Shown here: one piece after another, positions 1-56,570 of the stretch | Numbering within the stretch: the stretch's first letter is position 1 | How the letters are laid out: the number at the start of each line of letters is the position of its first letter | Assembly (NCBI GenBank): GCA_951406725.2 | Contig: OX597817.1 | Location: forward strand, 76,446,001 to 76,510,000 | Direction of reading: 5' to 3' | Source: Octopus vulgaris | Lineage: Eukaryota | Length of the DNA: 64,000 nucleotides | Made by a program: the position numbers and the translations under genes | The notes under the pieces: generated by a model | What the model was told of the DNA's origin: nothing | Database searches by the model: none | What the model saw: the letters and a program-made list of their open reading frames with translations, nothing else

Positions 1-386
1 CAATTCTGATCAAGTATTAGGTATAAGAAAATTTGGTTGTTATTTCTAGTTGAACGGACGACCACATAGATTTCTCCAATTGGATCGTGTAATGTGGTAT
101 GGTGATACTAAGAGACACTATGCGGTAGACGTCAAACGATATGTTTCAAAATAGCGTCTTTGAGGTTCTTTGTTCAAATATTTTACTATCAGACTTAATT
201 TTTCTCTCCCCATCTCGAGTGATAATTAACTGAAATTAATTAACACCCACGTGGTTAATTATTTCAGAGCAAACAACGAAACATTAATAAAGTTGCAATA
301 AATGAATATATGAATACACATACTCAAACGTATATACATACATATATACATACATACATATATACATGTGTATATATTTATATATA

Positions 387-429
<43 letters not shown>

Positions 430-432
<3 letters not shown>

Positions 433-1230
433 TGTTTATTTGATGTGAAGTTATACATGAAAACCAGTCAACATTGAAGTGAAAGATTACTCAATACTTT
501 TTCGTTGAGTACATATTTATTAAACTTTACAAAGAAAATACTGACAGTAACTTCGAAGCTTTTGCTTGCTTGCCTTCATCAGACTGTACTTTACCGGAGT
601 TGTGTCTGGCCTCATATGATCTTGGTCAAGTTGTTTTATTTTTCGTAGCATGTAGCGATGTGTATGATAATTCAGTATATGATATCGGTGAACCAGGGTG
701 TGGTTACGTAGGAAGTGGAGACAGAGGAGTAGGGGAGAAAATTATTTATCTGTAAGGTGTGAGTTTATAGACAGTTATGGTGAGCAGATTTATTTTGGTT
801 TGGTATGAGAATTTTTTCATGATTTACGATTCAGTCAGTTCTGGACGTAAAGGTATAAAGGTGTTAATAGGAATTGTCAACTTAAAGCCTTGACATATTT
901 TTGGAGAAAGTTGGTTTCTCTCGTATTATACTGTCCACAAAAAATGCTTAGAGATACACCAGTTGGTCACACAGCATAGGCTGACTGAGATTTAGTTAGT
1001 GTTCGTGGTATATGATTTCCATAAAGAAATTTTAAACTGAATGTCTTGGTAGGATCAGGAGACTATCTTCGTATGAATATTTATTCGGATTTTCTTGTCT
1101 GTTTCTAGCTTGGTTACTTGTATTCATATAAGTGTAGATAAATGTAGGCAGATGAATGTCTGACATAGTCTCTAAGTCTATATGAATGCAAAAGGATGAT
1201 AAATTTTTCATAGGTCTATTTATGTGTGTG
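430..1230 (-). mobile_element. Possible decayed Penelope-like 3' remnant with a degenerate hammerhead motif at ~545-587
   Basis: Minus strand reads acagt-CTGATGA-a-ggc...gcttc-GAA-gtt-actgt, then AATAAA, and ends at a (TA)n tract. The GAAA/stem III part is incomplete and upstream coding similarity is weak. Confidence 0.3.
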
Positions 1231-1307
1231 TGTAAGCAATACATAAATGCAACAATATATATGCATTACCACACACATATACATCTGCATATGTATATAT
1301 ATGTATA

Positions 1308-2001
1308 CGAGAGGGTACCCAAAAGTAACCGGAAACGTCCTCTGCGGGCCAAGCCCGTTGTAGTTTGGGCTACCGCTACTAGAAGCCACTTGATGCAGCC
1401 CTCAGGCATCTGCCTGCCGACCAGTGTCGTCCTCTGAGGTCGTACTGCCACGTGGTGCGTCTTTGTTTTGCAGTACTTTTCCCCTGTTTGCCGATTTTTG
1501 AAACGTTTGAATAGCATAGATCTGTGAAAACGGCGGCCATAACAGTTGTTTTTCTTCAAACAGCTTACAAGGGTGCTGCCATGAGTAAAACACAAGTTTA
1601 CGAGTGGTTTTCATGCTTTATGAATTGTGATTAGTCGTTTGAAGACCAATCTCGTTCAGGACGACCGTCGAGCTCCAAAATGAATGAAAACATCATGAAA
1701 GTTCATGAACTGATATTGAAAGACCGTCACTGAACAATTGACGAACTTATTGATATGACTGGAGCGTCCTGGAGCTCCTGCCAACGAATTTTGAGCGAGT
1801 AATTACGAATGAAAAGAGTTGCAGCGTTAGAAGGCATCACTTCGCAAGAGTTCCTGCACTGATTCGGACTGTGGAAAACGCGTCTGGACCAATGCATTGC
1901 TTGAAATGGAGAACACTTTGAAGGAGAGAAAAGTGTAAACATGTAAAACTAAATGAATAAAATAACTTGCAAAATTCCGGTTTCTTTTGGGTACCTCCTC
2001 G
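1308..2001 (+). mobile_element. Internally deleted Tc1/mariner element (mariner family)
   Basis: TIRs cgagagggtacccaaaagtaaccggaa / ttccggtttcttttgggtacctcctcg, with TA on the left flank. Decayed N-terminal HTH region (LQTAYKGAAMSKTQVYEWF..EDQSRSGRP..LRMKRVAA) is joined directly to the C-terminus (WKTRLDQCIA*NGEHFEG); the catalytic domain is absent. Confidence 0.9.
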
Positions 2002-2002
2002 A

Positions 2003-2003
<1 letters not shown>

Positions 2004-2035
<32 letters not shown>

Positions 2036-2113
2036 TGTATGTATGTATGTATGTATGTATGTATGTATGTATGTATCTATGTATGTATGTATGTATGTAT
2101 CTATGTATGTATG

Positions 2114-2164
<51 letters not shown>
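2004..2164. repeat. (TATG)n + (TA)n compound microsatellite
   Basis: Directly visible. Confidence 0.95.
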
Positions 2165-2166
<2 letters not shown>

Positions 2167-2722
2167 GGAGCAAATAATTCCCGAGAACATATTTGTGAAG
2201 GTATCACTGATGCTATTATCTAGTGTAATAATTTAAAGATAATAATAACAGAATCAATAATATAGGCGATTATAGGTCCCAAAAAAGCACTAAATAGCTC
2301 AAAGATTAAAATTAATCAAAGGACATACTAAGTTTGTCTACCTGCTAGAAATAACAGTCAAAACTCTTATTGAAATCGCCAAAATACTCTGATAATAACT
2401 ACAGAAATCAACTGTCCGAAGATAAACGGACCAAGACAATCTCTCAGCATACATTCAATTATTTGGACTCACGTGAACCGGTTTCTGGACTGGCATAATA
2501 GCCTCACTTTCCTCAGCACGCGTTACCATGATAGAAAGCTACCAACCCATCACATTGAAGTCCGTGCTACAACCGATTCGTTTTACGCCGAATATTGGCA
2601 GCCACCAGTGTGAAAATAATTTCAATACGGAGCAAATAATTCACGAAAAAATATTTCTGAAGATCTCATTGACTCTATTATTATCTAGTGAAAAATGATA
2701 GAATAAATAATATAGGCGATTG
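2164..2722 (-). mobile_element. Non-coding hammerhead-bearing element with ~100-bp direct terminal redundancy (PLE pLTR / retrozyme-like)
   Basis: tacggagcaaataattc...aataatataggcgatt occurs at 2164 and again at 2626 (period ~462). Hammerhead-like motif at 2470-2522. Abuts (TA)n. Related sequence recurs at 37440-37920. Confidence 0.65.
2470..2522 (-). ncRNA. Minimal type I hammerhead ribozyme-like motif
   Basis: cgcgtg-CTGAGGA-aagtgaggctattatgccagtcca-GAAA-ccgg-TT-cacgtg: 6-bp stem I, intact core, palindromic stem III (AACCGGTT). The base of stem II pairs poorly. Confidence 0.6.
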
Positions 2723-2816
2723 CCTATATGAAATTGAGTAAAGTTACAACTTTATCTGCTTTCGAACATTTTTAATTCAATCGGTGGGAATCTTCTGCAA
2801 TTTGTTTATCTTCATA

Positions 2817-3207
2817 CTAGCAGTATCGCCCGGCGTTGCTCGGGTTTGTAAGGGAAATAACTATATAAGCATTTTAGAGAGTTATAGCCAAAAAATAGCA
2901 AAAAATTGCATTAAAAATGGAAACAAATGATGGTAAATATTTTTATAAATCGTTGACTCATTGTAGACATTTTTAGAGAGTTACTTCCCTTATATAATGG
3001 CGAAAAAATGCATTAAAATGGAAAAAATGATGGTAATTTTTTTTTTAAATCGTAGACTCATCGTAGACGCGCGCTAATACCCAGAAGGGCTCGATATGAA
3101 TCACGACTATAAGATACCCGGTTTTGGTTAAACTGCACCGCAAAATGTGGGAGTAGTTAGGAATCTAAATCGTAGGAGACAGACACACAACTTCACTTTA
3201 TATATAA
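2817..3207 (-). mobile_element. Non-autonomous Helitron-like element
   Basis: Minus-strand 3' end is a cccg-agcaacgc-cggg hairpin, ~8 nt, then CTAG followed by T. The 5' end lies in a TA tract. Internal ~100-bp tandem duplication (about 2870-2965 and 2968-3066). Confidence 0.7.
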
Positions 3208-3445
3208 ATATATATATATATATATGTGTGTGTGTATGTATATATATATATGCACACATACACACATATAGATTCCCATACTTATCTAGGCTACTTTTCA
3301 ATTTTTGTATTATTTTATATTATATTATATTTTGCAATGTTGTAAAAATATTATATTTCACAAAATATAATATGATATAAATTAATATAATATAATATAA
3401 TATAATATAATATAATATAATATAATATATATATATATATATATA

Positions 3446-3688
3446 TCTTTTACTGGTTTCAGTCCAGGGCTGAGTCATGCTGGTGCACCACCTGTAGTAA
3501 CTTGGTGTTGTTTGTGGTATTGTTTTTGGTGAAGTAGCAAGTTGGACGGAGCTACTCTTCTTCGTGTCTCCTGCCGCGATGAAGGTTCATCTGGTATCTC
3601 AGATAGAAACTTGTCCGGGCGTTCCTTGAAAACTTCCACATCAACACTGTAAGGTTGTCTGGCAGGATGTTGAACAATTGTGGGCCCA
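3446..3688 (-). mobile_element. CR1-type LINE 3' fragment
   Basis: Minus translation GPQLFNILPDNL..DVEVFKERPDKFLSEIPDEP (CR1-like ORF2 C-terminus), followed by a short 3' UTR ending gactgaaaccagtaaaaga. Confidence 0.7.
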
Positions 3689-4650
3689 TTTATTTATGTG
3701 TGCATATGTGTACGTTTAGATACATTTATTCCATGTTTAACGTTGTGTATAAGAAAGTGTAGCTGTGTGACAGTTTTGTCACATACACACACACACACAC
3801 ACGGCTGCACACATATAGAAACACAAGCACATACACATCCTGGACGCTTTCCCCACTCATATACATACCATTTCGCATTCACCTTTCCCTATTGAGACAT
3901 GTGCAGTCATGTTTTCCTCACTCAGTCTGCAATCACTTGGATATCAAAATAATTTACAATTAAATCATTTGGTGGTGAAGGACTTCAGATCATTAAATAT
4001 ATAGCTTTTACTGTTTTTAACTTGTTTTGGCATTTATCTACCAACTCTGAACGCATAGAGACTCAAACTACCGTCTGAATTTTGTACTGTTTTCAAATCT
4101 TTGAGGCTAGAAAGAAGAGAGAGAAGAGTATTTTGCCCGACTTGAAAAACTGACAAGTGTTTAACTATATACCTTCGTTCCCTCGCGCATTTATGCTAAT
4201 CGTTTTGCGCAGTGTCTCATTAATTAATGTTGTTGAAAAAAGAAAGTTACGAACTGTTTTATGTGTACCCACTAACATGCACACGCTCACATACGCATAT
4301 GTACTTAAAAATACAACGACGCTTCGCTGACAAATTGCAATTACGCACGTATGCGTGTACATACACACTCTCGCATGCACGCACACACACACATACGCAC
4401 ACACATACACATCCATAAACCCACCCACACACATACCCACAGAGGCATGCACACATACACACGTATAGATTCCCATACTTGTCTAGGCTACTTTTCAATT
4501 TTTGTATTATTTTATATTATACTAGCAGTATTCCAACCTTGTCTGATTTTCACGTTTTATTTACAATCTTATAATGATATATTATAAGATAATATATTAT
4601 AATTGAATAAAATAAAATGAAATAGTAGAATGTTAAATATTCATTCTGAT

Positions 4651-4695
4651 TGAACTAGTACTTTCATGCATTGAATTCTGCAATCTTCGGGTTCA
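4651..4695 (-). ncRNA. Minimal type I hammerhead ribozyme (U4C variant) in the PLE pLTR
   Basis: tgaac-CCGAAGA-t-tgca-gaattcaa-tgca-t-GAAA-gtac-TA-gttca: perfect 5-bp stem I, 4-bp stem II, palindromic stem III (AGTACT). Confidence 0.8.
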
Positions 4696-5189
4696 TGTAG
4701 TAGTGTTGACAGTCATGCTTCACAATTTTTGACTGTAGCGAGATGAGTGATTCTGTGCTATAAATACAGCTGGGTAGGCTCCAGAGTGCTAGGTTTTGCA
4801 AACTGTATTCTGACCAATCAGTGTGTAGTATCACTCAATTACTTAAGCTGATTGGTTGGTTGAGCTGATTGGTTTAGGCATCACGCTTTGTTGGACAGGT
4901 CAAGAGTCCTGTATCTTGACCCTGGCCGAAGCAGCAATTGTTGGGTTATTTTTAGAAATGTTGTAAATATCCTTTGTCAGAGATTTTTATATTTTTATAT
5001 TTCAATTGTCATCATCATCATTGTCAGCACCTTAATTATTGTTGCTAGTGGTGATGGTGGTGGCAATAGAACTTTTAACCCTAAATAAGATAATTTTCCT
5101 GCTATCTTCGTCTTGATCACCTTTAGTATTGTTGTTGTTGTTAGTGGTCATGGTCGTAGCAGTGGAAGTAATACCTCTAAGTATTATTA

Positions 5190-5774
5190 TTATTGCTTAT
5201 TTAGCTTGGGTTCGAATTTATCAATAAAATTCTTTTCTCTGATTTTCCTCTCGATTTCACTTGGGCTGTGTAATTTGTAGAATGGAAATATTATATATAT
5301 TTTCCGACCACATGTTGCTAGGTGGTTACTCAAAGGTATCTGACGGACCTCTGGGTCTCTAATCTGTTGCCGGTGTACACGTGAGCGTTCTAATAGTGCG
5401 TTTCCCGTCTGACCTACATATATTTCTTCACAATTTGGGCATTTGATGCAGTAAATTAAATTTCTGCTTTTGCAGTTCATATTCGCGTTTGTGAATATTT
5501 TCCCGGTTTTTGTGTTTATATATTGACCGGTATGTATGAATTGGCATGTGCCACATCGGCTATCATTGCATTTAGATACCGTGAATGTTTGGTCTTTGTT
5601 GCTGAGGTCAAATTTTGCCTTTGTTAGTAATGTTTTCAAGTTTTTAGGCTGTCTTTTACTAAGCACCATAGCTCGATCCTTGATTATGTCTTTTAATTCA
5701 TTACTTTGGGCAATGATTGGTAGGTTTGCTTTGGCAATGTTGAAGATATTCTGGTGACATGGGTTGTGTGTCAC
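5190..5774 (-). CDS. PLE linker plus GIY-YIG endonuclease domain (truncated; Cys-rich linker as in Neptune-like PLEs)
   Basis: KRQPKNLKTLL, CNDSRCGTC, NLIYCIKCPNCEEIYVGQTGNALLERSRVH, RKIREKNFIDKFEPKLN. The frame is open but lacks RT and a real start codon. Confidence 0.85.
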   Translation of the reverse strand: MTHNPCHQNIFNIAKANLPIIAQSNELKDIIKDRAMVLSKRQPKNLKTLLTKAKFDLSNKDQTFTVSKCNDSRCGTCQFIHTGQYINTKTGKIFTNANMNCKSRNLIYCIKCPNCEEIYVGQTGNALLERSRVHRQQIRDPEVRQIPLSNHLATCGRKIYIIFPFYKLHSPSEIERKIREKNFIDKFEPKLNKQ

Positions 5775-5790
5775 TATGAATGGTATATAT

Positions 5791-6370
5791 ATATTTAAAC
5801 ATAATATATATAGGGCAATAATAAATTATTATTACCAGTGGCCTAGCACAACGAATTAGTCATTAGACTATATATTATTCATATAGAAATACAATAAGAG
5901 GCTTCCAAATAGGAAAACGTTGTGCTAGAAAAAGCAGTAGAAATCTCAAAGCCACACGAAAAGGATAAATTCTCGAAAGGAATGAAAATTAAAAACGTTT
6001 ACCATCTCAACTATTTCCCAGACCATGGTTTCTAACTATTTCCATCAAAAAATATTCACTGAAGGCCAGTTTTCATCAGTGGGATAGCCTTTAGATTTCA
6101 AACATAAAGACCGCCAGATCCTCACGTAGAACTAACGGTTTGTATATCCTAACTTTTCAAACCACTGCGCAGACGCAGATTATACCCGGCGGCATAGAGG
6201 ATGCCGGTAAAAATTTCGAACAAATTTATCAAACAATATTTAAACATAATACATAATACATAGGGCAATAATAACGCTTTCCTATTTGAAAGCCTCTTAT
6301 TGTATTTCTATATGAATAATATGTAGTCTAATGACTAATTCGTTTTTTGTGCTAGGCCACTGGTAATAAT
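5791..6370 (-). mobile_element. Non-coding hammerhead element with direct terminal redundancy and an inverted 5' segment
   Basis: 5791-5824 is repeated at 6236-6274. 5828-5920 is the reverse complement of 6273-6370. Hammerhead at 6016-6084. Ends in (TA)n. Confidence 0.8.
6016..6084 (-). ncRNA. Type I hammerhead ribozyme, canonical core, GUC cleavage triplet
   Basis: tccca-CTGATGA-a-aact-(30-nt loop)-agtt-a-GAAA-ccatgg-TC-tggga; palindromic stem III (ACCATGGT). Confidence 0.85.
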
Positions 6371-7165
6371 GTCTAAGGAAGATGTCTAAGTACTGCTAGA
6401 TCATGTGAATTCTATAAAGCCATCCATACAATTCACAATGGAAAAGGAAAAAAATCAGTTAGCATTCCTAGATGTATTAATAACACGCGCTAAGCATGGG
6501 TTCAGGACATCCGTATACCGCAAGCCAACCTTTAGTGGACGATACCTTAACTTCAATTCCTACCATCCATACAGTGTAAAGAGAGGGATTACTCAGTGCC
6601 CGAAATATTGGACAAAGAATATAAATAGCGATCCTGATACACACCACGAAGAAATGATGAAGCTAAGTAACAATCTATTAAGCAACAACTACACCAAAAA
6701 ACATACTACCCACTCCAATCAGAAAGAGGAGAGAGCATGAAACCCATTAACTGACAACAGCCTGTCTACCCTATGTGAAAGGCTTTTCGGAAAAGATACA
6801 TAAGATATGCGGTCCGTATAGAAGAGAATATAACCAAAAGCTGTGTGTGCTTCATCCCATGCAGTTGTGGTAGGTTATTCAAAGGCGAAACATGCTGCCA
6901 ACTCAAAATAAGGGTGGTGGAACGTAAAAAAGCTGTGACACGAGGAGATATTGAAAAATCGGGTATAGCTGATCATGTATGGAAAAACGGAGACTACCTT
7001 TCCTTGTGGGATAAAGTTAAAATAACAGACAGAGAACACCACTGGAAAATACGAAGAGACAACAAATATGCTAGAATACATTAACCTCCTAAGCATACCT
7101 AGTGCAGATATGAGTTGAATATGGGAACCGGTATTAAGGAAGGATGCAAAAATATTAAGTTTATA
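6371..7165 (+). pseudogene. Decayed Penelope-like RT thumb plus GIY-YIG fragment (Penelope/Poseidon-like)
   Basis: IQFTMEKEKNQLAFLDVLI..TSVYRKPTFSGRYLNFNSYHP, then IPCSCGRLFKGET..LKIRVVERKKAV..SGIADHVW; frameshifts and deletions. Confidence 0.85.
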
Positions 7166-7194
7166 AACCCTAAATTCACTCTATAATTGCCCAT

Positions 7195-7267
7195 GGGCAT
7201 ATAGCGTAATGGTTAAGAGCGTGAGCTACTAACCCCATGATTCCCACTTCAGTTCCAGGCAGTGCCT
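7195..7267 (+). other. tRNA-like (Pol III promoter-like) segment just 3' of the PLE ORF; not an intact tRNA gene
   Basis: gggcat...gtgcct acceptor-like stem, A box TAGCGTAATGG, degraded T-arm/B box (cttcagttcc). Confidence 0.55.
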
Positions 7268-7273
7268 TGAATA

Positions 7274-7315
<42 letters not shown>

Positions 7316-8879
7316 AATAATGATAACATACCTCAGGAATGAGAACCTAGGGTTGAGTTCAAAAATTCTACCAAGACTATCTGGAGAGTAAATCAGCGGA
7401 AACGTTATGGTTACAACATACAAGATGAGGACACACACAGGTCCAATGAAAATAATGTAAATAATATATATATATATATATATATGCTCTACTAATGCAT
7501 ATTGAGTTCGATTCTTGCTGCTCTCTCTCTCTCTCTCTCTCTCTCTTTATATATATATATATGTGTGTGTGTGTGCGTATAATATATGTATACTTGTGTG
7601 TATTTATGCGTGTATACGTTAAGTATCTATGTATAGTGACAGACATACTGTGAGTGAGAGAAAGAAGAAAGGAAAAGATATATATATGGATTATGTCATT
7701 TCTTTAGATTAACTTTAAGCTTCTTAGTAAATTAATTAGTTATTTTATCAGCTGAAATGAAGTTACAAATTAGTTTTTCAAACTACACCTACTATTTTAT
7801 CTTGTATGTATCTGTAAATATTCTTTTTTATTTATTTATCACTCTTGTCAGGAAAAGACATTGGTTTTGAAATGAATTTTGCTATTTCAATTTTCTCTTA
7901 TATGTATTAACTCTGTCAAGCACAACAGAAAAGTTAGAAGATTAGAAATATATGTAAGCTTCTGGTTTTCTAGATCCTGACACTGTATAGATTCTTATAG
8001 TTAAAGTTATTTTGACTTTAGATACACTAATAGTAAGTTTCTCTTTTGTGATTTTAGTCCTTTGCCTGAAATATGTATCAGGTGATACACAAGACTATAT
8101 TTTCTTGGCGTCTAGGCATCATATGCAATACACATTTCATATTTTTGAAACCTAGAATGTAACTCGGGTCTTATGAAAAAGAAGTTTTATATTGCTCAGA
8201 ACGGATGAAACAAGGACTTACTTAAGGTCTGAAGACAAGCGTGGACGCCTAGGACAAACTCATGAAAATGCATTGGACAGGCAAAAGGTTATATGGTAAT
8301 ATTGAGGTGACTGATTAAGCATCAAAGAAATTGGGTTAAATGCATGAATATCACAAGTGCTAGTTTTCCTGTCCCACAGAACCTTTCCAGCTTAATAAGA
8401 AACCTATATCATGTGTGGTGCTGTACATGGTAGATGGGTAATAAGGTCAGAATGGACTGAGGCTGTTACAACGTGAGTTTTTTTCGAAGGAGAAAACATT
8501 TCTCTCAAGCTATGCTAAAGAAAATAATTGTTGAAAATAGATGAACACCCTAAATCTAGTTCACCCTTACTTTAAAATATAGTGTTTTGGCAACATTAGC
8601 AAAAAAAAAATGTATGAACAAAAATACAAAAAAAAAATTTTAAGTAAGCGATAAAAGTGACAGAGGAAATAGTAAGCATCTGATGAGTCAAATCTACAGT
8701 GCACACTCAAATCTCAATTTAGGATATTATTCTTCCGCTTATGTCATAAAAAATCCTGAAAAAGAATAATCCTTGCTTCCTTAATTAGATATAGTTTAGT
8801 TCAGTTTCAATCTTACGAATGAGTTATAACTCTACAGTTTTCCTTAGGATAACGAGTTTCTCTGTTTTTAGTATGCTAC

Positions 8880-9205
8880 GTGAAGGTACGTGACTTAGTA
8901 GTTAGAGTTTTCGGCTCATGATCGTATGGTCATGAGTTCGATTTTCATTGGCGCGTTGTGTTCTTGAGCAAGATATTTTATTTCACGTTCCTTCAATCCA
9001 CTCAGCTGGCAAAGATGAATTGTTCCTGTATTTCAAAGGGCCAGCTTTATCACATTCTGTATCACGCTCAATCTCCCTGAGATCTATATTAAGGGTTCAC
9101 GTGTCTGTGGAGTGCTCAGCCACTTTTACATTAATTTCTCAAGCTGAGTCTTCCATTGATCGGATCAACTGAAACCCTGAACCTCGTAACCGATGGAGTG
9201 TCAGT
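8880..9205 (+). mobile_element. tRNA-derived SINE (CORE-like central domain)
   Basis: A box tgacttagtagttag, B box gagttcgattt, then ttgtgttcttgagcaag...tttcacgtt...ccactcagctgg. Related copies at 29905-30152, 32170-32305 and 55490-55790. Confidence 0.75.
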
Positions 9206-20333: not shown

Positions 20334-23300
20334 TTCTTTTTTACTAAAACGGTTATGCCGAGAAACATGACTACCCAAAAAAAAAACATATAAAGGCGAT
20401 TTTCGATCTATCAGCCTACGACATCATAAATATATCTATTCGAAGAACGAGGAAGCGGTGTCAGGTCAAAAAGTCAACTCTCAACAAACAGACTCGTCTT
20501 CTATTGCCACTGTCAATACCTTAATGACAAACCAAAATTCATGCCGGTTCGGCAATCACCCGGGACAACAAGGACCGCGTTACCTACTGGGGAAATAGAC
20601 TGGGATCGAAAAGTCTGCTCGGTAACCAGATCCAGGAGAACCCTAACACTAGACCTGTGGTGACGCCACCAAAAACATTACCAAAACAAAACGCATAAAA
20701 TGGGCTAGAGAGGATTATAGAGATGTGCTGAAAGCTTTCTATACAGCCCAACTAAACCCAAACAATGACGTCATAATGCAAACTTACATTTCATGGAGAA
20801 ACTTAGTAGGCAATGAAGTTCACAGATATACAGATGCAAATAAACTAAGTAATGTACGTAGAGACATCATTAAAAATAAAAGGTTAATTGACACTGAAAT
20901 TAGCCTAATTAGGACACAAATATCTTATCGTAGACCAAATGAAAACAGCAACAATGTAGCTAAAATAGGTAACAGGTGCACAGAACCCAGTGTACGAGCA
21001 GTACATCCCAACGAGGAAGCCGAAGAAAGAATAGCGAAGGACAGATATGCAGGAAAAGAGGAGAAAGTAGACCTACTTCAAGAACACCAGAATAGTTAAG
21101 ACACAGAATTTGAATTGAATAATAAAGAGTAGTTCATAGAATAAGGAAAAAGAGAGAACTCTGAACATGCATCTTCAACACTCCTGCCGAAGACAGCACA
21201 TGAGTTTTCTGCAATTTCTTGCTGAATAGCTTGCATAGATAATTTGTTCATAGTGATCAAATGTTTGTACAGTACATAAGCTCGTTCCCTCCATCAAATC
21301 GACTGAACACGCGTACGGTGTGCAACATGCCACATGTCGAAGCGATCATAGGTCAACTATTTCTTCAAAAATACAAACGACTAAGAATAAGAATAAGAAA
21401 AAAGAGAGAACTCTGCAAGATTGTGTCTACTGACATCATGAATAGAGAACCACTGGTAAAGTTATCAACCAGCATAAATAAAACAACATAATCATGATAT
21501 ATAATGTTGCTCTTAGACAGATCTTAGGTAATAGGGGAAATGACCTAACAGCCTTGAATAGCATCATCTATTCCACTGTTCAAGTAGGTATCAGGTCAAC
21601 ACAGAAAAAGACCAGCCATGTCAATAGACCTCCTAAGTGGAAAGTAGCAATACAAAAAGAGATTGAATCTCTGCGGGCGGATGTATCAGTTCTCGATGAA
21701 CTTGCTAGAGGAGTAAATGTTCAGACGAAACGAGGTAGAAATATCAAGCAAAAATATAAAATCAGGGAACACTTGAAACAACGAATACAACTGAAAGCCC
21801 AACGGCTTAGAAGGTATGACAAACGAATCAAATTTTATCGACAAAATAAGATAGTCAAGTCGGATGCAAAGAAATTATATAGGGAAATTGGCAAAAGTAA
21901 GACAGAAGTAAAGGAGCCACCTAAGACTGGGGAAACGGAAGAGTTCTGGAAGAAGATATGGAGCAACAAAAAAGAATATAATGCTAAAGCTGACTGGATA
22001 GAGCATAATAAAGTGAAACTAGATGAAGTTGAAGAGCAGAAATGGGAGACAATAGAAATAGAAGAGCTAAGATGTGTTTATAGGAAGTTTCACAAATTGA
22101 AAACCTCAGGACTGGACCGAATTCGTAACATCTGGCTAAATTGTCTCACAGAAATACACCAAAATTTCGCTGCATCTCTGACTGATGTCATCCAGAACTT
22201 AAAGCAAATACCTGCCTGGTTGACCGAAGGAACAACATATTTCTACCAAAAACTCACCAAAGAACTACCGACCAATAACATGTCTCAACACCACCTAGAA
22301 GATCCTCACATCCATATTAACTGACAAAATATACACTTTCCTTGGACAGAGATCTCTCTTTCCACCAGCTCGAAAAGGTTGCAAAGTGAATTCTTATGAG
22401 TGCAAAGATAAGTAAAATGACTGTGAAGAATTGCTGGAGCAAATACAAGAACCTGAGTATGGCATAGATAGACTACAGGAAAGCGTTTGATAGTGTCCCA
22501 CATAATTGGATACTCAAGGTCCCTGAGATATATAAGATCTCTCCTGTAATTTCCAAATTCCTACAATGTAGCATGGCCAAGAGGAACACACGTCTCCTTC
22601 TAAACAATAGTAATGGGATGAGCCAAACAAATAACATCAACATCAAACGAGGCATCTTTCAATGTGACTCATCTCCATTTGCAAGGTACATATCTCACTC
22701 TCAAACGAACTAAATAACAGCGGCTATGGATTCAAAGTTTACAATACGACAATAATCCATATGGACGATCAGAAGATGTTTGCTAGAAATGACAAAAAGC
22801 TAGTGGGGCTGCGAATAACTGTTAAAGAATTCAGTAATGACATCGGAATGGATTTTGACCTTGATAAGTGTGCTAAAGCAACTTTTGTAAGAGTCAAGCT
22901 CAAGCAAACAGCTTCCATTATATTAGATAGCGACACTACCATCAAGGAACTTGACTCACAAGAAAATTACAAATACCAGGGGATAAACGAAGGAGATGGT
23001 ATACAACATGTTACTATGAAGGAAAAACTAAGAAAAGAATATTACAGGAGAATAAGACTCATACTAAAAATCGAATCGAAGCTATTAACACCCTAGTACT
23101 TCCAGTAGTCCAATACAGTTTTAACATAGTTAACTGGAATCTTACAGAGCTCCAACGCCTGGACAGGAGGACATGAAAACTACTAGCTTCTAGAACATGC
23201 ACCTCCCAAAAGCAGATGTTAATCGTCTGTACCTACCTAAAAGTAATGGAGGAAGAGGAATGATGCAGGTAGAACTGTGCTATAAGACCTTCTCAATAGC

Positions 23301-23659
23301 AATGAGCAGATACTTATCAAGTACAGAGGACAGGACGCTGCGATATGCGTGCAAAAACAGAAGCAGCAAAAAATCACATTCTATTGTCATGGAAGCTTGC
23401 AGATTCGCAAGGGAAATTGGCATTAATCCTGAAATATTTGAAGAACCTGAAACCACTGCCACAAAACAAGCAAAATGGATCAAACACACTGCTTAAAGGA
23501 ACGAGCGGAAACAAATTGACGATCGGTGGAGCCAGAAGCCTCTATCTGGACAGCATATACTTCAAAATCGAAATGCTGATGTAGATCAAGCAACAACGCA
23601 TCAGTGGCTGAGAAGTTTAGGACTGAAAGTTGATACTGAAAGTTTCATATTGGTGGCAC
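20334..23659 (+). mobile_element. Decayed R4/Dong-clade non-LTR retrotransposon (N-terminal region, RT, thumb; no 3' end)
   Basis: Starts after an (ACT)(AAT)n tract. Peptides ANKLSNVRRDIIKNKRL, PPKWKVAIQKEI, QRLRRYDKR..YRQNK, IDYRKAFDSVPH, KRGIFQCDS, MDD, IGMDFDLDKC, YKYQGI, HLPKADVNRLYLPKSNGGRG. Many frameshifts. Confidence 0.9.
21165..21382 (-). mobile_element. Headless SINE fragment inserted in the LINE with a 26-bp flanking duplication
   Basis: Matches 16279-16499. Flanked by agaataagRaaaaagagagaactctg at 21138-21163 and 21390-21415. Confidence 0.85.
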
Positions 23660-24911
23660 TCTTAAAATCTTTTAAAATCAAAGCTCAACTCAAGGAACCT
23701 TGTGACTGTCATCAGCATATGGACTGTTGCTGTAGTCCGCTATAGTGCACCCATCGTGAAATGGTCACAAGCGGAGATCAGCCAACTCGATCGCAGTACC
23801 CGAAAGACAATAACAATACATGGTGCCCTCCACCCTAAAGCTAATATACACAGGGTTCTACATGAAGAGATGTGAAGGTGGAAGTGGGCTGATTAGCATA
23901 CGTGAGTGCATCAACGGTGAAAAAAGAAACATGGCAGAATATTTGGTAAACAGCAAAGAAGACCTGCTACAGTATGCTGCTAGTGAAGAAGGAGTTAACA
24001 AAAATGGACTTGAGGGTGCTCATAAATTCCGATCAAGAACAGCCAACGAGAGAGAAGAAATCCTACTCCGTATGAAATCACATGGTCAGTTCCACCGTGA
24101 AACCAACAAATTAAAAGACCAAGAAGCATCATGGAGGTGGCTCAATAAGGATGACATAAAAAATAATATTGAAAGCGTAATCGTCGCTGCCCAGGACAAG
24201 GCATTGAATACCATCGCAGTGAAACAGAATATATACCGCACGAGTGCATCGGACCTCTGCAGAATGAGTGGGAAGAGGGTCGAAAACGTGAGTCATATTG
24301 TTAGTGCTTAGAAAAGTCTTGCGCAGAAAGAGTAGAAGCGTAGACACGACATAGTAGCCCAAAACCTCCACTGGCTACTATGCCGTAAGTATGGATATAA
24401 GGTTACAGGTGCTTGATACAGGAAAAGGTAATGGACGAAAAGGGGATGGCAAAACTCCTCTGGGACTTTGATTTCCAGACAGACAAGGTGTTAGAGCACC
24501 GAATGCCGCATATAGCAACCTTTAAGAGGGACAAACAAGAGTGCCTAATCATTGACGTAGCAGTGCCAGGAGATCAATGTATCGTCATGAAAGAAAGAGA
24601 AAATGTTGATAAATATGGAGACTTGAGGATTGAGATCGCTAAGATGTGACGGCTACGAGAGTCGAACATAAAGCTTAGCCTATTGTCATCGGAGTATTGA
24701 GTTCAATACCACCCAATCTGGAAAAAACATCTGAAGACCTTAGAGATTCTCTACAATCTTGATGTATTGCAAAAGTCGGCATTACTTGGAAGTGCACTCA
24801 TATTGCGTAAAGTAGTGCCTGTCTGAGGTCTTGACAAACAGTGCAAACCCCCGGTAAACACAATATCTTCAATCAACAACCTCACGATATTGCATACTCT
24901 GCGACGTCTAT
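23660..24911 (+). mobile_element. Second R4/Dong-family element: thumb, decayed zinc knuckle, restriction-like endonuclease, 3' UTR
   Basis: LKSKLNSRNL..VRYSA..LDRSTRK..HGALHPKA..EGGSGL; CRMSGKRVENVSHIVS..RHD; LLWDFDFQTD..HRMPHI..CLIIDVAVPGD..KYGDL; LQKSALLGSALILRKV; (AAC)(AAT)n tail. Confidence 0.9.
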
Positions 24912-24941
24912 AACAACAACAACAACAACAACAATAACATC

Positions 24942-25438
<497 letters not shown>

Positions 25439-52034: not shown

Positions 52035-52147
52035 AATGCGCTAAAAGAAATAAGTGAAATACTTACTCATACCCATGGAAGAAGCGAGCACCAAGCCATG
52101 AGCACAATTAAGTACCTCAAATATATATATATACATATATATATGTG

Positions 52148-52640
52148 TGTGTAAATATATGCTCGACATTTTGGCAGGGAGTTTCCGTCTACCAGATCTA
52201 CACATAAGGTATTCTTCGACCTGGATTCGTAACAGAAGAAGACACTTCCTCAAGTTGCTGCGCACCGTGACTGAACCCGAAACCATGTGGCAGCAAAGCA
52301 AACCGTCTTAACCACACAGCCACGATTGTGCCCATAGCTAATATCAACGACCTATACTTATAATTATATCTATTTATATTTATTTATTTATATATCTGTG
52401 TAAATATATGCTCGACATTTTGGCAGGGAGTTTCCGTCTACCATATCTATACATAGGGCATTCTTCGACCTGGATTCGTAACAGAAGAAGACACTTCCTC
52501 AAGTTGCTGCGCACCGTGACTGAACCCGAAACCATGTTGCAGCAAAGCAAACCGTCTTAACCACACAGCCACGATTGTGCCCATAGCTAATATCAACGAC
52601 CTATACTTATAATTATATCTATTTATATTTATTTATTTAT
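52148..52640. repeat. Recent 249-bp tandem duplication of a SINE head plus flank
   Basis: gtaaatatatgctcgac at 52151 and 52400; only a handful of differences. Confidence 0.95.
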
Positions 52641-52994
52641 TTATTTATTTTGTCTGCATACAGGTAATATTAATATTTTCACAAACCCACTGATACACTT
52701 CAGTAATTTTCTTCTTGTATTTCTCCTCTGTTAACACCTCCTGAGTTATATAATGGACTGGCTCAAATTTCTGCGCCTACCTCATACAAAACCTTTCATA
52801 ATCTGTTCCAAAACGTTTTGTTTACATAACTTTCCCGCCTATCCTTGCCAGTTTTCGTCTTCTTTATATTTTTCATATGATATTATATAAACATAACAGA
52901 TGAGAACAGCGTTAATTTTGTCATTATTATCCCCCCCAACCCCATCCACCTCCATTATTTGCACCATGAATGCCAACAACTTCCTTTCTAAAAT

Positions 52995-55974: not shown

Positions 55975-56570
55975 ATCCTTTCTATTGGAAGCACAAGGCC
56001 TCAAATTTGGGGGAAGGGGTTAAGTCGATTACATCGACCCCCCAGGGTGTCAGTGGTACTTAATTTATCGATCCCGATAGGATTAAAGGCAAAGTCAACC
56101 TCGGAGGAATTTGAACTCAGAACGTAGCGACGGACGAAATACATACCTATTTCTTTATTACCTACAAGGGGCTAAACATAGAGAGGACAAACAAGGACAG
56201 ACAAATGTATTAAGTCAATTACATCGACCCCAGTGCGTAACTGGTACTTAATTTATCGACCCCGAAAGGATGAAAGGCAAAGTCGACTTCGGCGGAATTT
56301 GAAGTCAGAACGTAGCAGCAGACGAAATACCTATTTCTATTTCTTTACTACCCACAAGGGGCTAAACACAGAGGGGACAAACAAGGACAGACAAACGGAT
56401 TCAGTCGATTATATCGACCCCAGTGCGTAACTGACACTTATGTAATCGACTCCGAAAGGATGAAAGGCAAAGTCGACCTCGGTGGAATTTGAACTCAGAA
56501 CGTAGAGACAAATGAAATACTGCTAAGCATTTCGCCCGGTGTGCTAACGTTTCTGCCAACTCGCCGCCTT
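55975..56570 (-). mobile_element. SINE with a ~190-bp internal unit repeated three times
   Basis: agtcgattacatcgacccc..gtactta..gaaaggcaaagtc..gaatttgaactcagaacgtag at ~56022, 56212 and 56402; a single head at 56520-56569. Confidence 0.9.

What the first reader, a model, noticed from the sequence alone, without database searches (positions are those of the whole stretch)
5791..6370. Best-preserved hammerhead element: X(inverted)-Y-body-ribozyme-X-Y architecture
Seen on the minus strand: an inverted copy of segment X (6370-6273), then Y (6274-6236), a body with a canonical CUGAUGA/GAAA/GUC hammerhead, then X (5920-5828) and Y (5824-5791) running into (TA)n. The period is ~445 nt. The redundant 5' part is flipped at the X/Y junction. 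Established: PLE insertions often show partial tandem and inverted 5' pLTR segments. Inference: a PLE-type integration footprint on an element with no ORF. A transcript would also fold X onto inverted X, enclosing the ribozyme in a ~95-bp duplex.
Basis: partly seen in the sequence, partly recalled or inferred. Interest (0 to 1): 0.75.

Follow-up and report, generated by a model that had tools for sequence, protein, structure and literature searches.

The report
Hammerhead retrozyme with Penelope-type two-armed insertion
This is one aged copy of a 445-base non-coding repeat that carries a predicted self-cutting RNA motif and is scattered through an animal genome, often as two back-to-back arms ending at two fixed points, likely pasted in by a Penelope-like retrotransposon enzyme; it is a new member of a known kind of element.

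Summary
The described sequence is real: inverted X (6370-6273, 93% to X), Y, a 445-nt period and an intact type I hammerhead core with predicted cut at 6021/6020. It is one copy of a dispersed, ORF-less repeat family. The ribozyme shows compensatory changes, and all three common stem III variants are palindromes, so it likely works as a dimer. Copies are 5'-truncated, usually end in (TA)n, and 49 of 102 have a head-to-head second arm of variable length, so X is not a TIR. In 39 of 43 scorable two-armed copies one arm ends at a long site and the other at a short site; an intact Neptune-type Penelope-like element in this genome does the same (8 of 8). This copy's exact X flip is atypical and probably a damaged arm. 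No autonomous parent was found; cleavage and expression are untested. Verdict: new member of the animal non-LTR retrozymes. This scan already noted the same end rule on other DNA, including this genome.

The parts
5791..6235 (-). One full 445-nt unit (u1 = 6235, u445 = 5791), non-coding, 34.6% GC; ends at the family's long 3' end
   Evidence: folds better than 100 of 100 shuffles, z -3.6
6009..6091 (-). Type I hammerhead motif: core CUGAUGA (6079-6073), long stem II, GAAA (6032-6029), palindromic stem III ACCAUGGU (6029-6022), predicted cut 6021/6020
5828..5921 (-). Segment X (u315-408), part of the unit's 3' region, not a terminal repeat
5869..5885 (-). Family short 3' end site (u351-367), where many other copies stop and run into (TA)n or (CT)n(TA)n
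5814..5836 (.). 10-bp hairpin whose loop is the X/Y junction (u400-422)
   Evidence: -8.3 kcal/mol
5791..5824 (-). Segment Y (u412-445), end of the ~80-95-nt tail between the short and long ends
6236..6274 (-). Y of the preceding unit: direct partial tandem, 5' end of the main arm
6273..6370 (+). Inverted second arm X' (u315-408), head-to-head with the main arm through a 2-nt overlap; outer end non-canonical, no (TA)n
6371..6375 (+). 5-nt filler that makes a 9-bp duplication of a nearby stretch of the neighbouring element; likely a repair scar
   Evidence: interpretation inferred
5784..5790 (-). Remnant (TA)n target/tail; 3-nt overlap with the element that follows
4527..5786 (-). Neighbour, not part of the repeat: 5'-truncated 3' piece of a very young Neptune-type PLE (Cys linker, GIY-YIG, 3' UTR), over 99.7% identical to many genomic copies, lacking its last bases and (TA)n
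6376..7270 (+). Neighbour, not part of the repeat: older, broken PLE RT-endonuclease fragment (Poseidon-like by recalled motifs only), cut just after the catalytic YxDD codons
   Evidence: Pfam gave no hit on two pieces

Best explanation
This is an aged, dispersed copy of a 445-nt non-coding repeat with a type I hammerhead motif, likely a non-autonomous retrozyme that is predicted to self-cleave as a dimer and was probably copied into AT-rich DNA by a Penelope-like element's enzyme acting in trans. Shown: unit, motif, covariation, 5' truncation, (TA)n ends, head-to-head arms, and one long plus one short 3' end per two-armed insertion. Inferred: a more-than-unit RNA (circle or uncut multimer) is bound by a PLE RT-endonuclease; both target strands are nicked; one 3' end primes at the long site (u445) and the other at the short site (u351-367); the two cDNAs stop early and are joined head-to-head through short overlaps. 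Inferred for this locus: the second arm later lost its outer part together with flanking DNA, leaving X' and a filler scar, and a young Neptune-type element then inserted into the (TA)n tail.
For: Family: 40 scored places in G000, the best 30 at 89-95% identity apart from the window itself; 45 exact hits of a ribozyme 20-mer against 543 of an X 19-mer, controls 0, i.e. strong 3' bias. Of 102 family loci, 49 are two-armed, 14 direct partial tandems, 39 single; 82 of 102 main arms have a simple-repeat run at the 3' end; 39 of 43 two-armed loci with both ends scorable are long+short (binomial p 1.6e-8). The intact Neptune-type PLE next door gives 8 of 8 long+short. Ribozyme: the 12 core positions differ at 4 of 354 cells against 375 of 8873 elsewhere (p 0.0015); position 7 varies U/A/C; 47 cells change on both sides of a pair against 12.9 in shuffles, 91.5% of cells pair against at most 46.5% when slid; common stem III variants ACCAUGGU, ACCGCGGU and ACCGUCGGU are all self-complementary, pair as dimers and do not fold alone. 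One clean two-ribozyme tandem dimer, spacing 434 (L071). The main arm here is longer than one unit and runs through the predicted cut; only 4 of 151 arm 5' ends lie within u213-219. Literature: PLE partial tandems, inverted 5' copies and a tail at one end (PMC8557442, PMC3846280, passages); both-strand nicking and two internal start sites in vitro (PMC11167929, parts 1-2 of 4).
Against: No autonomous PLE sharing sequence with the unit was found: PLE protein hits lay near 5 of 82, 4 of 40 and 1 of 30 loci, all downstream or on the other strand, and my one candidate junction (L104) failed in the 29 other copies of that element. Long tandem arrays, typical of described retrozymes, were not seen; the 45 ribozyme hits include one clean dimer. 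The A.A apposition and A-U (not G-C) first pair of stem II may weaken cutting; the active-type fold costs 8.5-9.5 kcal/mol over the predicted minimum in the unit and the whole locus. Covariation counts come from a few related subfamilies: pairs changed on both sides, 8 against 6.0 shuffled, are not significant (47 of 500 shuffles reach it). This copy's inverted arm fits neither end class, and the deletion invoked is not proven. The loci were picked by match to the body or to X, so the proportions are not genome-wide estimates; end classes were called from BLAST ends.
Confidence: 0.8

Rival explanations
1. The repeat is only the cut-off pseudo-LTR end of an autonomous PLE whose full copies I did not find.
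For: PLE copies are mostly 5'-truncated and their pLTRs carry such ribozymes (PMC4209133, parts 1-2 of 4). Genome searches score only the best 40 candidates, and I examined about 150 loci of the wider family.
Against: Where copies extend upstream of u1 they continue into the unit's own 3' end, never into an ORF; L071 holds two ribozymes 434 nt apart with only unit sequence between; no shared non-unit upstream sequence beyond common repeats among 102 loci.
Confidence: 0.1
2. At this locus the X flip arose at insertion by L1-style twin priming on one RNA: a second primer annealed at the X/Y hairpin just ahead of the first cDNA. This concerns the locus history only and is compatible with the family reading.
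For: The inverted arm ends at u408 and the main arm begins at u412, 3 nt apart, with a 2-nt overlap at the inner junction, the geometry of twin priming (recalled).
Against: Only this locus of 49 two-armed ones ends at u408; both breakpoints fall on a hairpin where other arms also stop; the outer junction has a filler duplication, no (TA)n, and the neighbour's upstream part is absent from window 1-9000.
Confidence: 0.3
3. X and X' are terminal inverted repeats of a DNA transposon (MITE) that captured a hammerhead-like stretch.
For: Two ~95-bp inverted copies flank a non-coding body.
Against: X lies inside a circularly permuted unit and is followed by Y; inverted arms differ in length and breakpoint from copy to copy; among the first 100 listed X hits I counted 15 close inverted pairs, all pointing outward, with spacings of about 60-660 nt; no target duplication is evident.
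Confidence: 0.01
4. The repeat and the flanking Neptune fragment are one chimeric reverse transcript made by template switching, which would identify the mobilising enzyme.
For: 5'-truncated Neptune-type pieces join the 3' end of an arm at four loci (window, L085, L104, L187) and meet one head-to-head at L188.
Against: Here the Neptune piece is over 99.7% identical to other copies while X and X' already differ by 3 substitutions and an indel, so it came later; three different Neptune families are involved, as expected for elements sharing a (TA)n target; at L188 both arms have long ends, against the rule.
Confidence: 0.05

Closest known systems
Animal non-LTR retrozymes (Cervera & de la Pena 2020, PMC7229834, passages; Li, Clavereau & Pollet 2026, 10.64898/2026.07.22.740005, parts 1-3 of 5)
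   Same: Short, low-GC, non-coding unit with one type I hammerhead; monomers and dimers; proposed to depend on PLEs.
   Different: Mostly dispersed 0.1- to 1.5-unit copies rather than arrays; about half two-armed with fixed ends in (TA)n; no matching pLTR found; circles and cleavage not shown. The parts I read do not describe the insertion footprint or cephalopods.
Endonuclease-positive Penelope-like element insertions with inverted pLTR and tail (Arkhipova et al. 2013, PMC3846280; Craig et al. 2021, PMC8557442; passages and section 11)
   Same: 5' truncation, partial tandems, head-to-head inverted copy, tail at one end, (TA)n bias in several clades.
   Different: No ORF; the tail is about 80-95 nt, not 30-40; the papers say 'often' or 'optionally' at one end, whereas here it is 39 of 43.
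Minimal and palindromic-helix-III hammerheads of metazoan PLEs (Cervera & de la Pena 2014, PMC4209133, parts 1-2 of 4)
   Same: Type I, short palindromic helix III suited to dimers, extra base after A9, long helix II.
   Different: A second extra A before G12 (A.A apposition kept in both sister families), A-U instead of G10.1-C11.1 in this family, and a 40-nt helix II region; the sister family mostly has U3 with G8.
Poseidon element of Anolis in vitro (Frangieh et al. 2024, PMC11167929, parts 1-2 of 4)
   Same: Two internal start sites for reverse transcription that define the tail; both strands nicked and extended; AT-rich targets.
   Different: That element is autonomous; the pairing of one start site per strand was not reported in the parts read; its ribozyme was dispensable for insertion in vitro.

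Membership tests
Animal non-LTR retrozyme | Type I hammerhead in the unit | tested here: met
Animal non-LTR retrozyme | Short non-coding unit, GC under 45% | tested here: met
   445 nt, 34.6% GC, longest ATG frame 32 codons
Animal non-LTR retrozyme | Tandem units with at least two ribozymes somewhere in the family | tested here: met
   L071, spacing 434; this locus itself has one ribozyme; no long arrays seen
Animal non-LTR retrozyme | Expressed as linear and circular monomer RNA | tested here: inconclusive
   only contigs of runs guessed to be RNA were available
Animal non-LTR retrozyme | Self-cleavage | not testable with these tools
   needs in vitro assay
PLE-type hammerhead | Intact core CUGANGA / GAAA / NUH | tested here: met
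PLE-type hammerhead | Short palindromic helix III | tested here: met
   three common variants, all self-complementary
PLE-type hammerhead | G10.1-C11.1 closing pair | tested here: not met
   A.A then A-U in this family; A.A then G-C in the sister family
PLE-mobilised insertion | 5' truncation, partial tandems, inverted 5' copy | tested here: met
PLE-mobilised insertion | Tail at one end only; AT-rich or (TA)n target | tested here: met
   39 of 43; same in an intact PLE, 8 of 8; not met by this copy's own inverted arm
PLE-mobilised insertion | Sequence shared with an autonomous PLE's terminal repeat | tested here: inconclusive
   none in the Neptune-type and Poseidon-like families examined; other PLE families, e.g. 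Hydra, not examined
Autonomous PLE | RT and GIY-YIG ORF within the element | tested here: not met
   the flanking ORF pieces belong to other families
MITE / TIR DNA transposon | Fixed terminal inverted repeats with target duplication | tested here: not met

The most novel reading that the evidence does not exclude
The one-long-one-short rule is a built-in property of Penelope-type integration: an asymmetric enzyme dimer primes the two nicked target strands at two different fixed sites of one RNA, and this retrozyme is a small circle copied by both halves at once. The family would then be a natural, countable record of the unresolved step that makes PLE inversions, and its A.A-closed, palindrome-conserving hammerhead a distinct dimer-only variant.
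Probability: 0.35. Interest if true: 0.6.

Novelty: new member of a known kind. Interest (0 to 1): 0.38.

Why it matters
The element type is known, and this copy is old and damaged. What is useful is the family's footprint: it ties an ORF-less ribozyme repeat to Penelope-type integration by shared insertion anatomy rather than by sequence, and it turns the qualitative 'tail at one end' into a near-strict rule that an in vitro PLE assay can test. The conserved palindrome in stem III is direct comparative support for dimeric cleavage. I found no paper on cephalopod retrozymes or on this rule in searches; supplements of those papers were not read and the library lacks most subscription journals.

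Tried and rejected
Rfam: no hit at gathering scores in the window, and only two chance snoRNA hits (E about 6.5) on 5700-6500. Flanking ORFs as parts of the element: rejected, none of 29 other loci shares them and they belong to separate large families. Young Neptune-type element as parent: its 4271-bp unit has no similarity to the repeat and no canonical hammerhead core by my pattern or model. L104 as a true pLTR-ORF junction: rejected, 0 of 29 other copies have the unit upstream; eight longer copies of that family have unrelated 3' UTRs. Two hits 3.7 kb apart on C1 as an autonomous unit: a local duplication with no PLE ORF. Expression: no RNA holder listed; contigs of runs guessed to be RNA cover the family but cannot show level, strand, ends, circles or editing. 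Empty allele or longer arm at this locus: no listed contig bridged the junctions, which proves nothing. Pile-up of 5' ends at the cut site: not seen (4 of 151). The constrained-fold figure had an indexing error and was replaced. Nine regex hits (of 73) were chance matches or shortened copies and, with four more near-duplicates or long-insert copies, were left out of the 60-row alignment. A genome-wide search with the RNA model was not available, so copy number rests on exact patterns.

Full report
Observation. The minus strand reads inverted X (6370-6273), Y (6274-6236), body, hammerhead, X (5921-5828), Y (5824-5791) and a short TA run. X and X' are 92.9% identical over 98 columns and Y repeats at a spacing of 445. 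The hammerhead core starts at 6079 and the predicted cut is 6021/6020. A descriptor passes 3 loci in the window against 0.04 in shuffles. Rfam does not recognise the motif. No second copy of this family lies in the window.

Setting. G000 has 2.8 Gb in 227 contigs. The AT-rich, microsatellite-dense sequence looks like a cephalopod genome; that is my inference, and earlier scan notes say the same. On the 3' side, 5786-4527 encodes a Cys linker and GIY-YIG domain and matches 40 scored places at 100% over 606 nt. The full element is a 4271-bp unit with two long ORFs, the second with RT and GIY-YIG. Its CX4CX2C linker fits the Neptune clade as described in PMC8557442 (passages). It joins the TA run through a 3-nt overlap and lacks its own last bases. 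On the 5' side, 6376 onward is an older RT-endonuclease fragment, 85-87% identical to other copies, cut just after the YxDD codons, with a 5-nt filler that duplicates 9 nearby bases. I call it Poseidon-like from recalled motifs only. Neither flank is shared by the 29 other loci first examined.

The family. The body finds copies at 88-95% identity on many chromosomes. An exact ribozyme 20-mer occurs 45 times and an exact X 19-mer 543 times, the 3' bias of reverse-transcribed, 5'-truncated copies. I mapped 102 loci: 62 picked by body or ribozyme, and 40 picked from the first 100 listed X hits. Upstream of the first base of the unit, copies continue into the unit's own 3' end, so the unit is circularly permuted. 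L071 holds two ribozymes 434 nt apart. The unit has no ORF. A sister family at about 70% identity has the same layout (273 exact hits of a 21-mer). A stem III pattern has 903 hits against 51 in the control, and 22 of the 30 loci returned belong to this wider family.

The ribozyme. In 30 aligned copies the 12 core positions differ at 4 of 354 cells against 375 of 8873 elsewhere. Position 7, the free position, varies. Across 60 rows from both families, stem I (CCCA/UGGG, CCUA/UAGG, CCUG/CAGG, CCCG/CGGG) and the base of stem II (AACU/AGUU, GACU/AGUC) change on both sides: 47 cells against 12.9 shuffled, though these trace to a few subfamily events and the count of pairs is not significant. Among 73 pattern hits stem III reads CCAUGG in 38, CCGCGG in 7 and CCGUCGG in 7, with most of the rest one change away. 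With the flanking A and U all three are self-complementary; they pair as dimers at -11 to -14 kcal/mol and do not fold alone. This matches the dimer design described in PMC4209133. Against activity: an A.A apposition precedes stem II, the first pair is A-U rather than G-C in this family, and the active-type fold is 8.5-9.5 kcal/mol above the predicted minimum in context. PMC4209133 reports low in vitro activity for such motifs, and the 2026 preprint saw cleavage in 1 of 9 dimers.

The footprint. Of 102 loci, 49 have a head-to-head inverted arm, 14 are direct partial tandems and 39 are single. 3' ends fall in two classes, short (u338-372) and long (u409 or beyond, mostly u445), usually followed by a simple-repeat run. 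Of 43 two-armed loci with both ends in these classes, 39 have one of each (p 1.6e-8); 6 more, including this one, have an end in neither class. Inner junctions mostly overlap or are spaced by a few bases. The intact Neptune-type element shows the same rule in 8 of 8 two-armed insertions among 24 stretches read, although it has no canonical hammerhead, so the rule belongs to the PLE machinery and not to the ribozyme. [quoted passage not shown] Arm lengths and spacings vary widely, which rules out a TIR element.

Mechanism. Inferred: a PLE protein binds a more-than-unit RNA of the repeat, nicks both strands of a (TA)n target, primes one strand at the long site and the other at the short site, and the two incomplete cDNAs are joined head-to-head. 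The template must be a circle or an uncut multimer, because arms such as this one (about 480 nt) exceed a unit and cross the predicted cut; arm 5' ends do not pile up there (4 of 151). The data do not separate circle from multimer, or one RNA from two.

This locus. The main arm is typical: long end, TA, 5' end at the X/Y hairpin. The inverted arm ends at u408 without TA, alone among 49. Either it was primed there (twin-priming geometry, about 0.3), or it is the inner remnant of a longer arm deleted together with the neighbour's upstream part, which the filler scar and missing TA favour (about 0.7). X and X' differ by 3 substitutions and an indel, whereas the Neptune piece is nearly identical to its family, so that piece inserted later. 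The X/X' duplex would form in a read-through RNA, but nothing shows such an RNA or a role for it (searches are uninformative).

Partner. Not found. PLE protein hits near family loci are downstream or on the other strand. The candidate at L104 failed. Three Neptune-type families share the (TA)n niche and repeatedly land on arm ends; L188 is a head-to-head join with an older relative of the young Neptune, but both ends are long.

Verdict. A real, ordinary-class element: a new family of animal non-LTR retrozyme with a clear PLE footprint. I derived the end rule before consulting earlier scan notes; those notes report the same rule for other families in this and other genomes, which is not independent evidence. 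Interest 0.38.

Noticed in passing
window 4527-5786 (-); full unit in L066: A very young, probably active two-ORF Neptune-type PLE (4271-bp unit, 40 of 40 scored places identical over the part matched, 1317 first-look candidates) with tandem and head-to-head copies and no canonical hammerhead found; a ready candidate enzyme for in vitro work.
   Followed up: partly
window 13936, 52029 and 2516 (minus strand, core start): Three more hammerhead-like motifs unrelated in sequence to this family; 13936 and 52029 pass the descriptor, 2516 has a palindromic stem III but a weak stem II.
   Followed up: no
L103-L122, L203-L232: Larger, older sister family (about 70% identity) whose ribozyme mostly has U at position 3 with G8, sometimes U3-A8, and the same A.A apposition.
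   Followed up: partly
L155, L157, L158 (3' UTR): An older Neptune-type family carries a hammerhead-like motif with a U3-A8 core and palindromic stem III near its 3' end in some copies; read by eye only.
   Followed up: no
L188: Head-to-head join, with a 5-nt overlap, between a repeat arm and a Neptune-type 3' fragment, both ending in (TA)n; co-insertion or later deletion.
   Followed up: partly
L071: Tandem dimer in which both ribozymes share a 17-nt deletion that shortens stem II, so the short form was copied as such.
   Followed up: no
window 20653-25163 (+): Broken long frames that look like a non-LTR retrotransposon RT gene ending in (AAC/AAT)n; judged from recalled motifs.
   Followed up: no
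window 52122-52644 and 56020-56521: Tandem duplications of 249 and 190 nt made of common SINE-like repeats.
   Followed up: no
runs X17, X18, X19 (organisms A, C, D): Contigs from three coded organisms cover both the repeat family and the young Neptune-type element, so both may be shared by related species.
   Followed up: no
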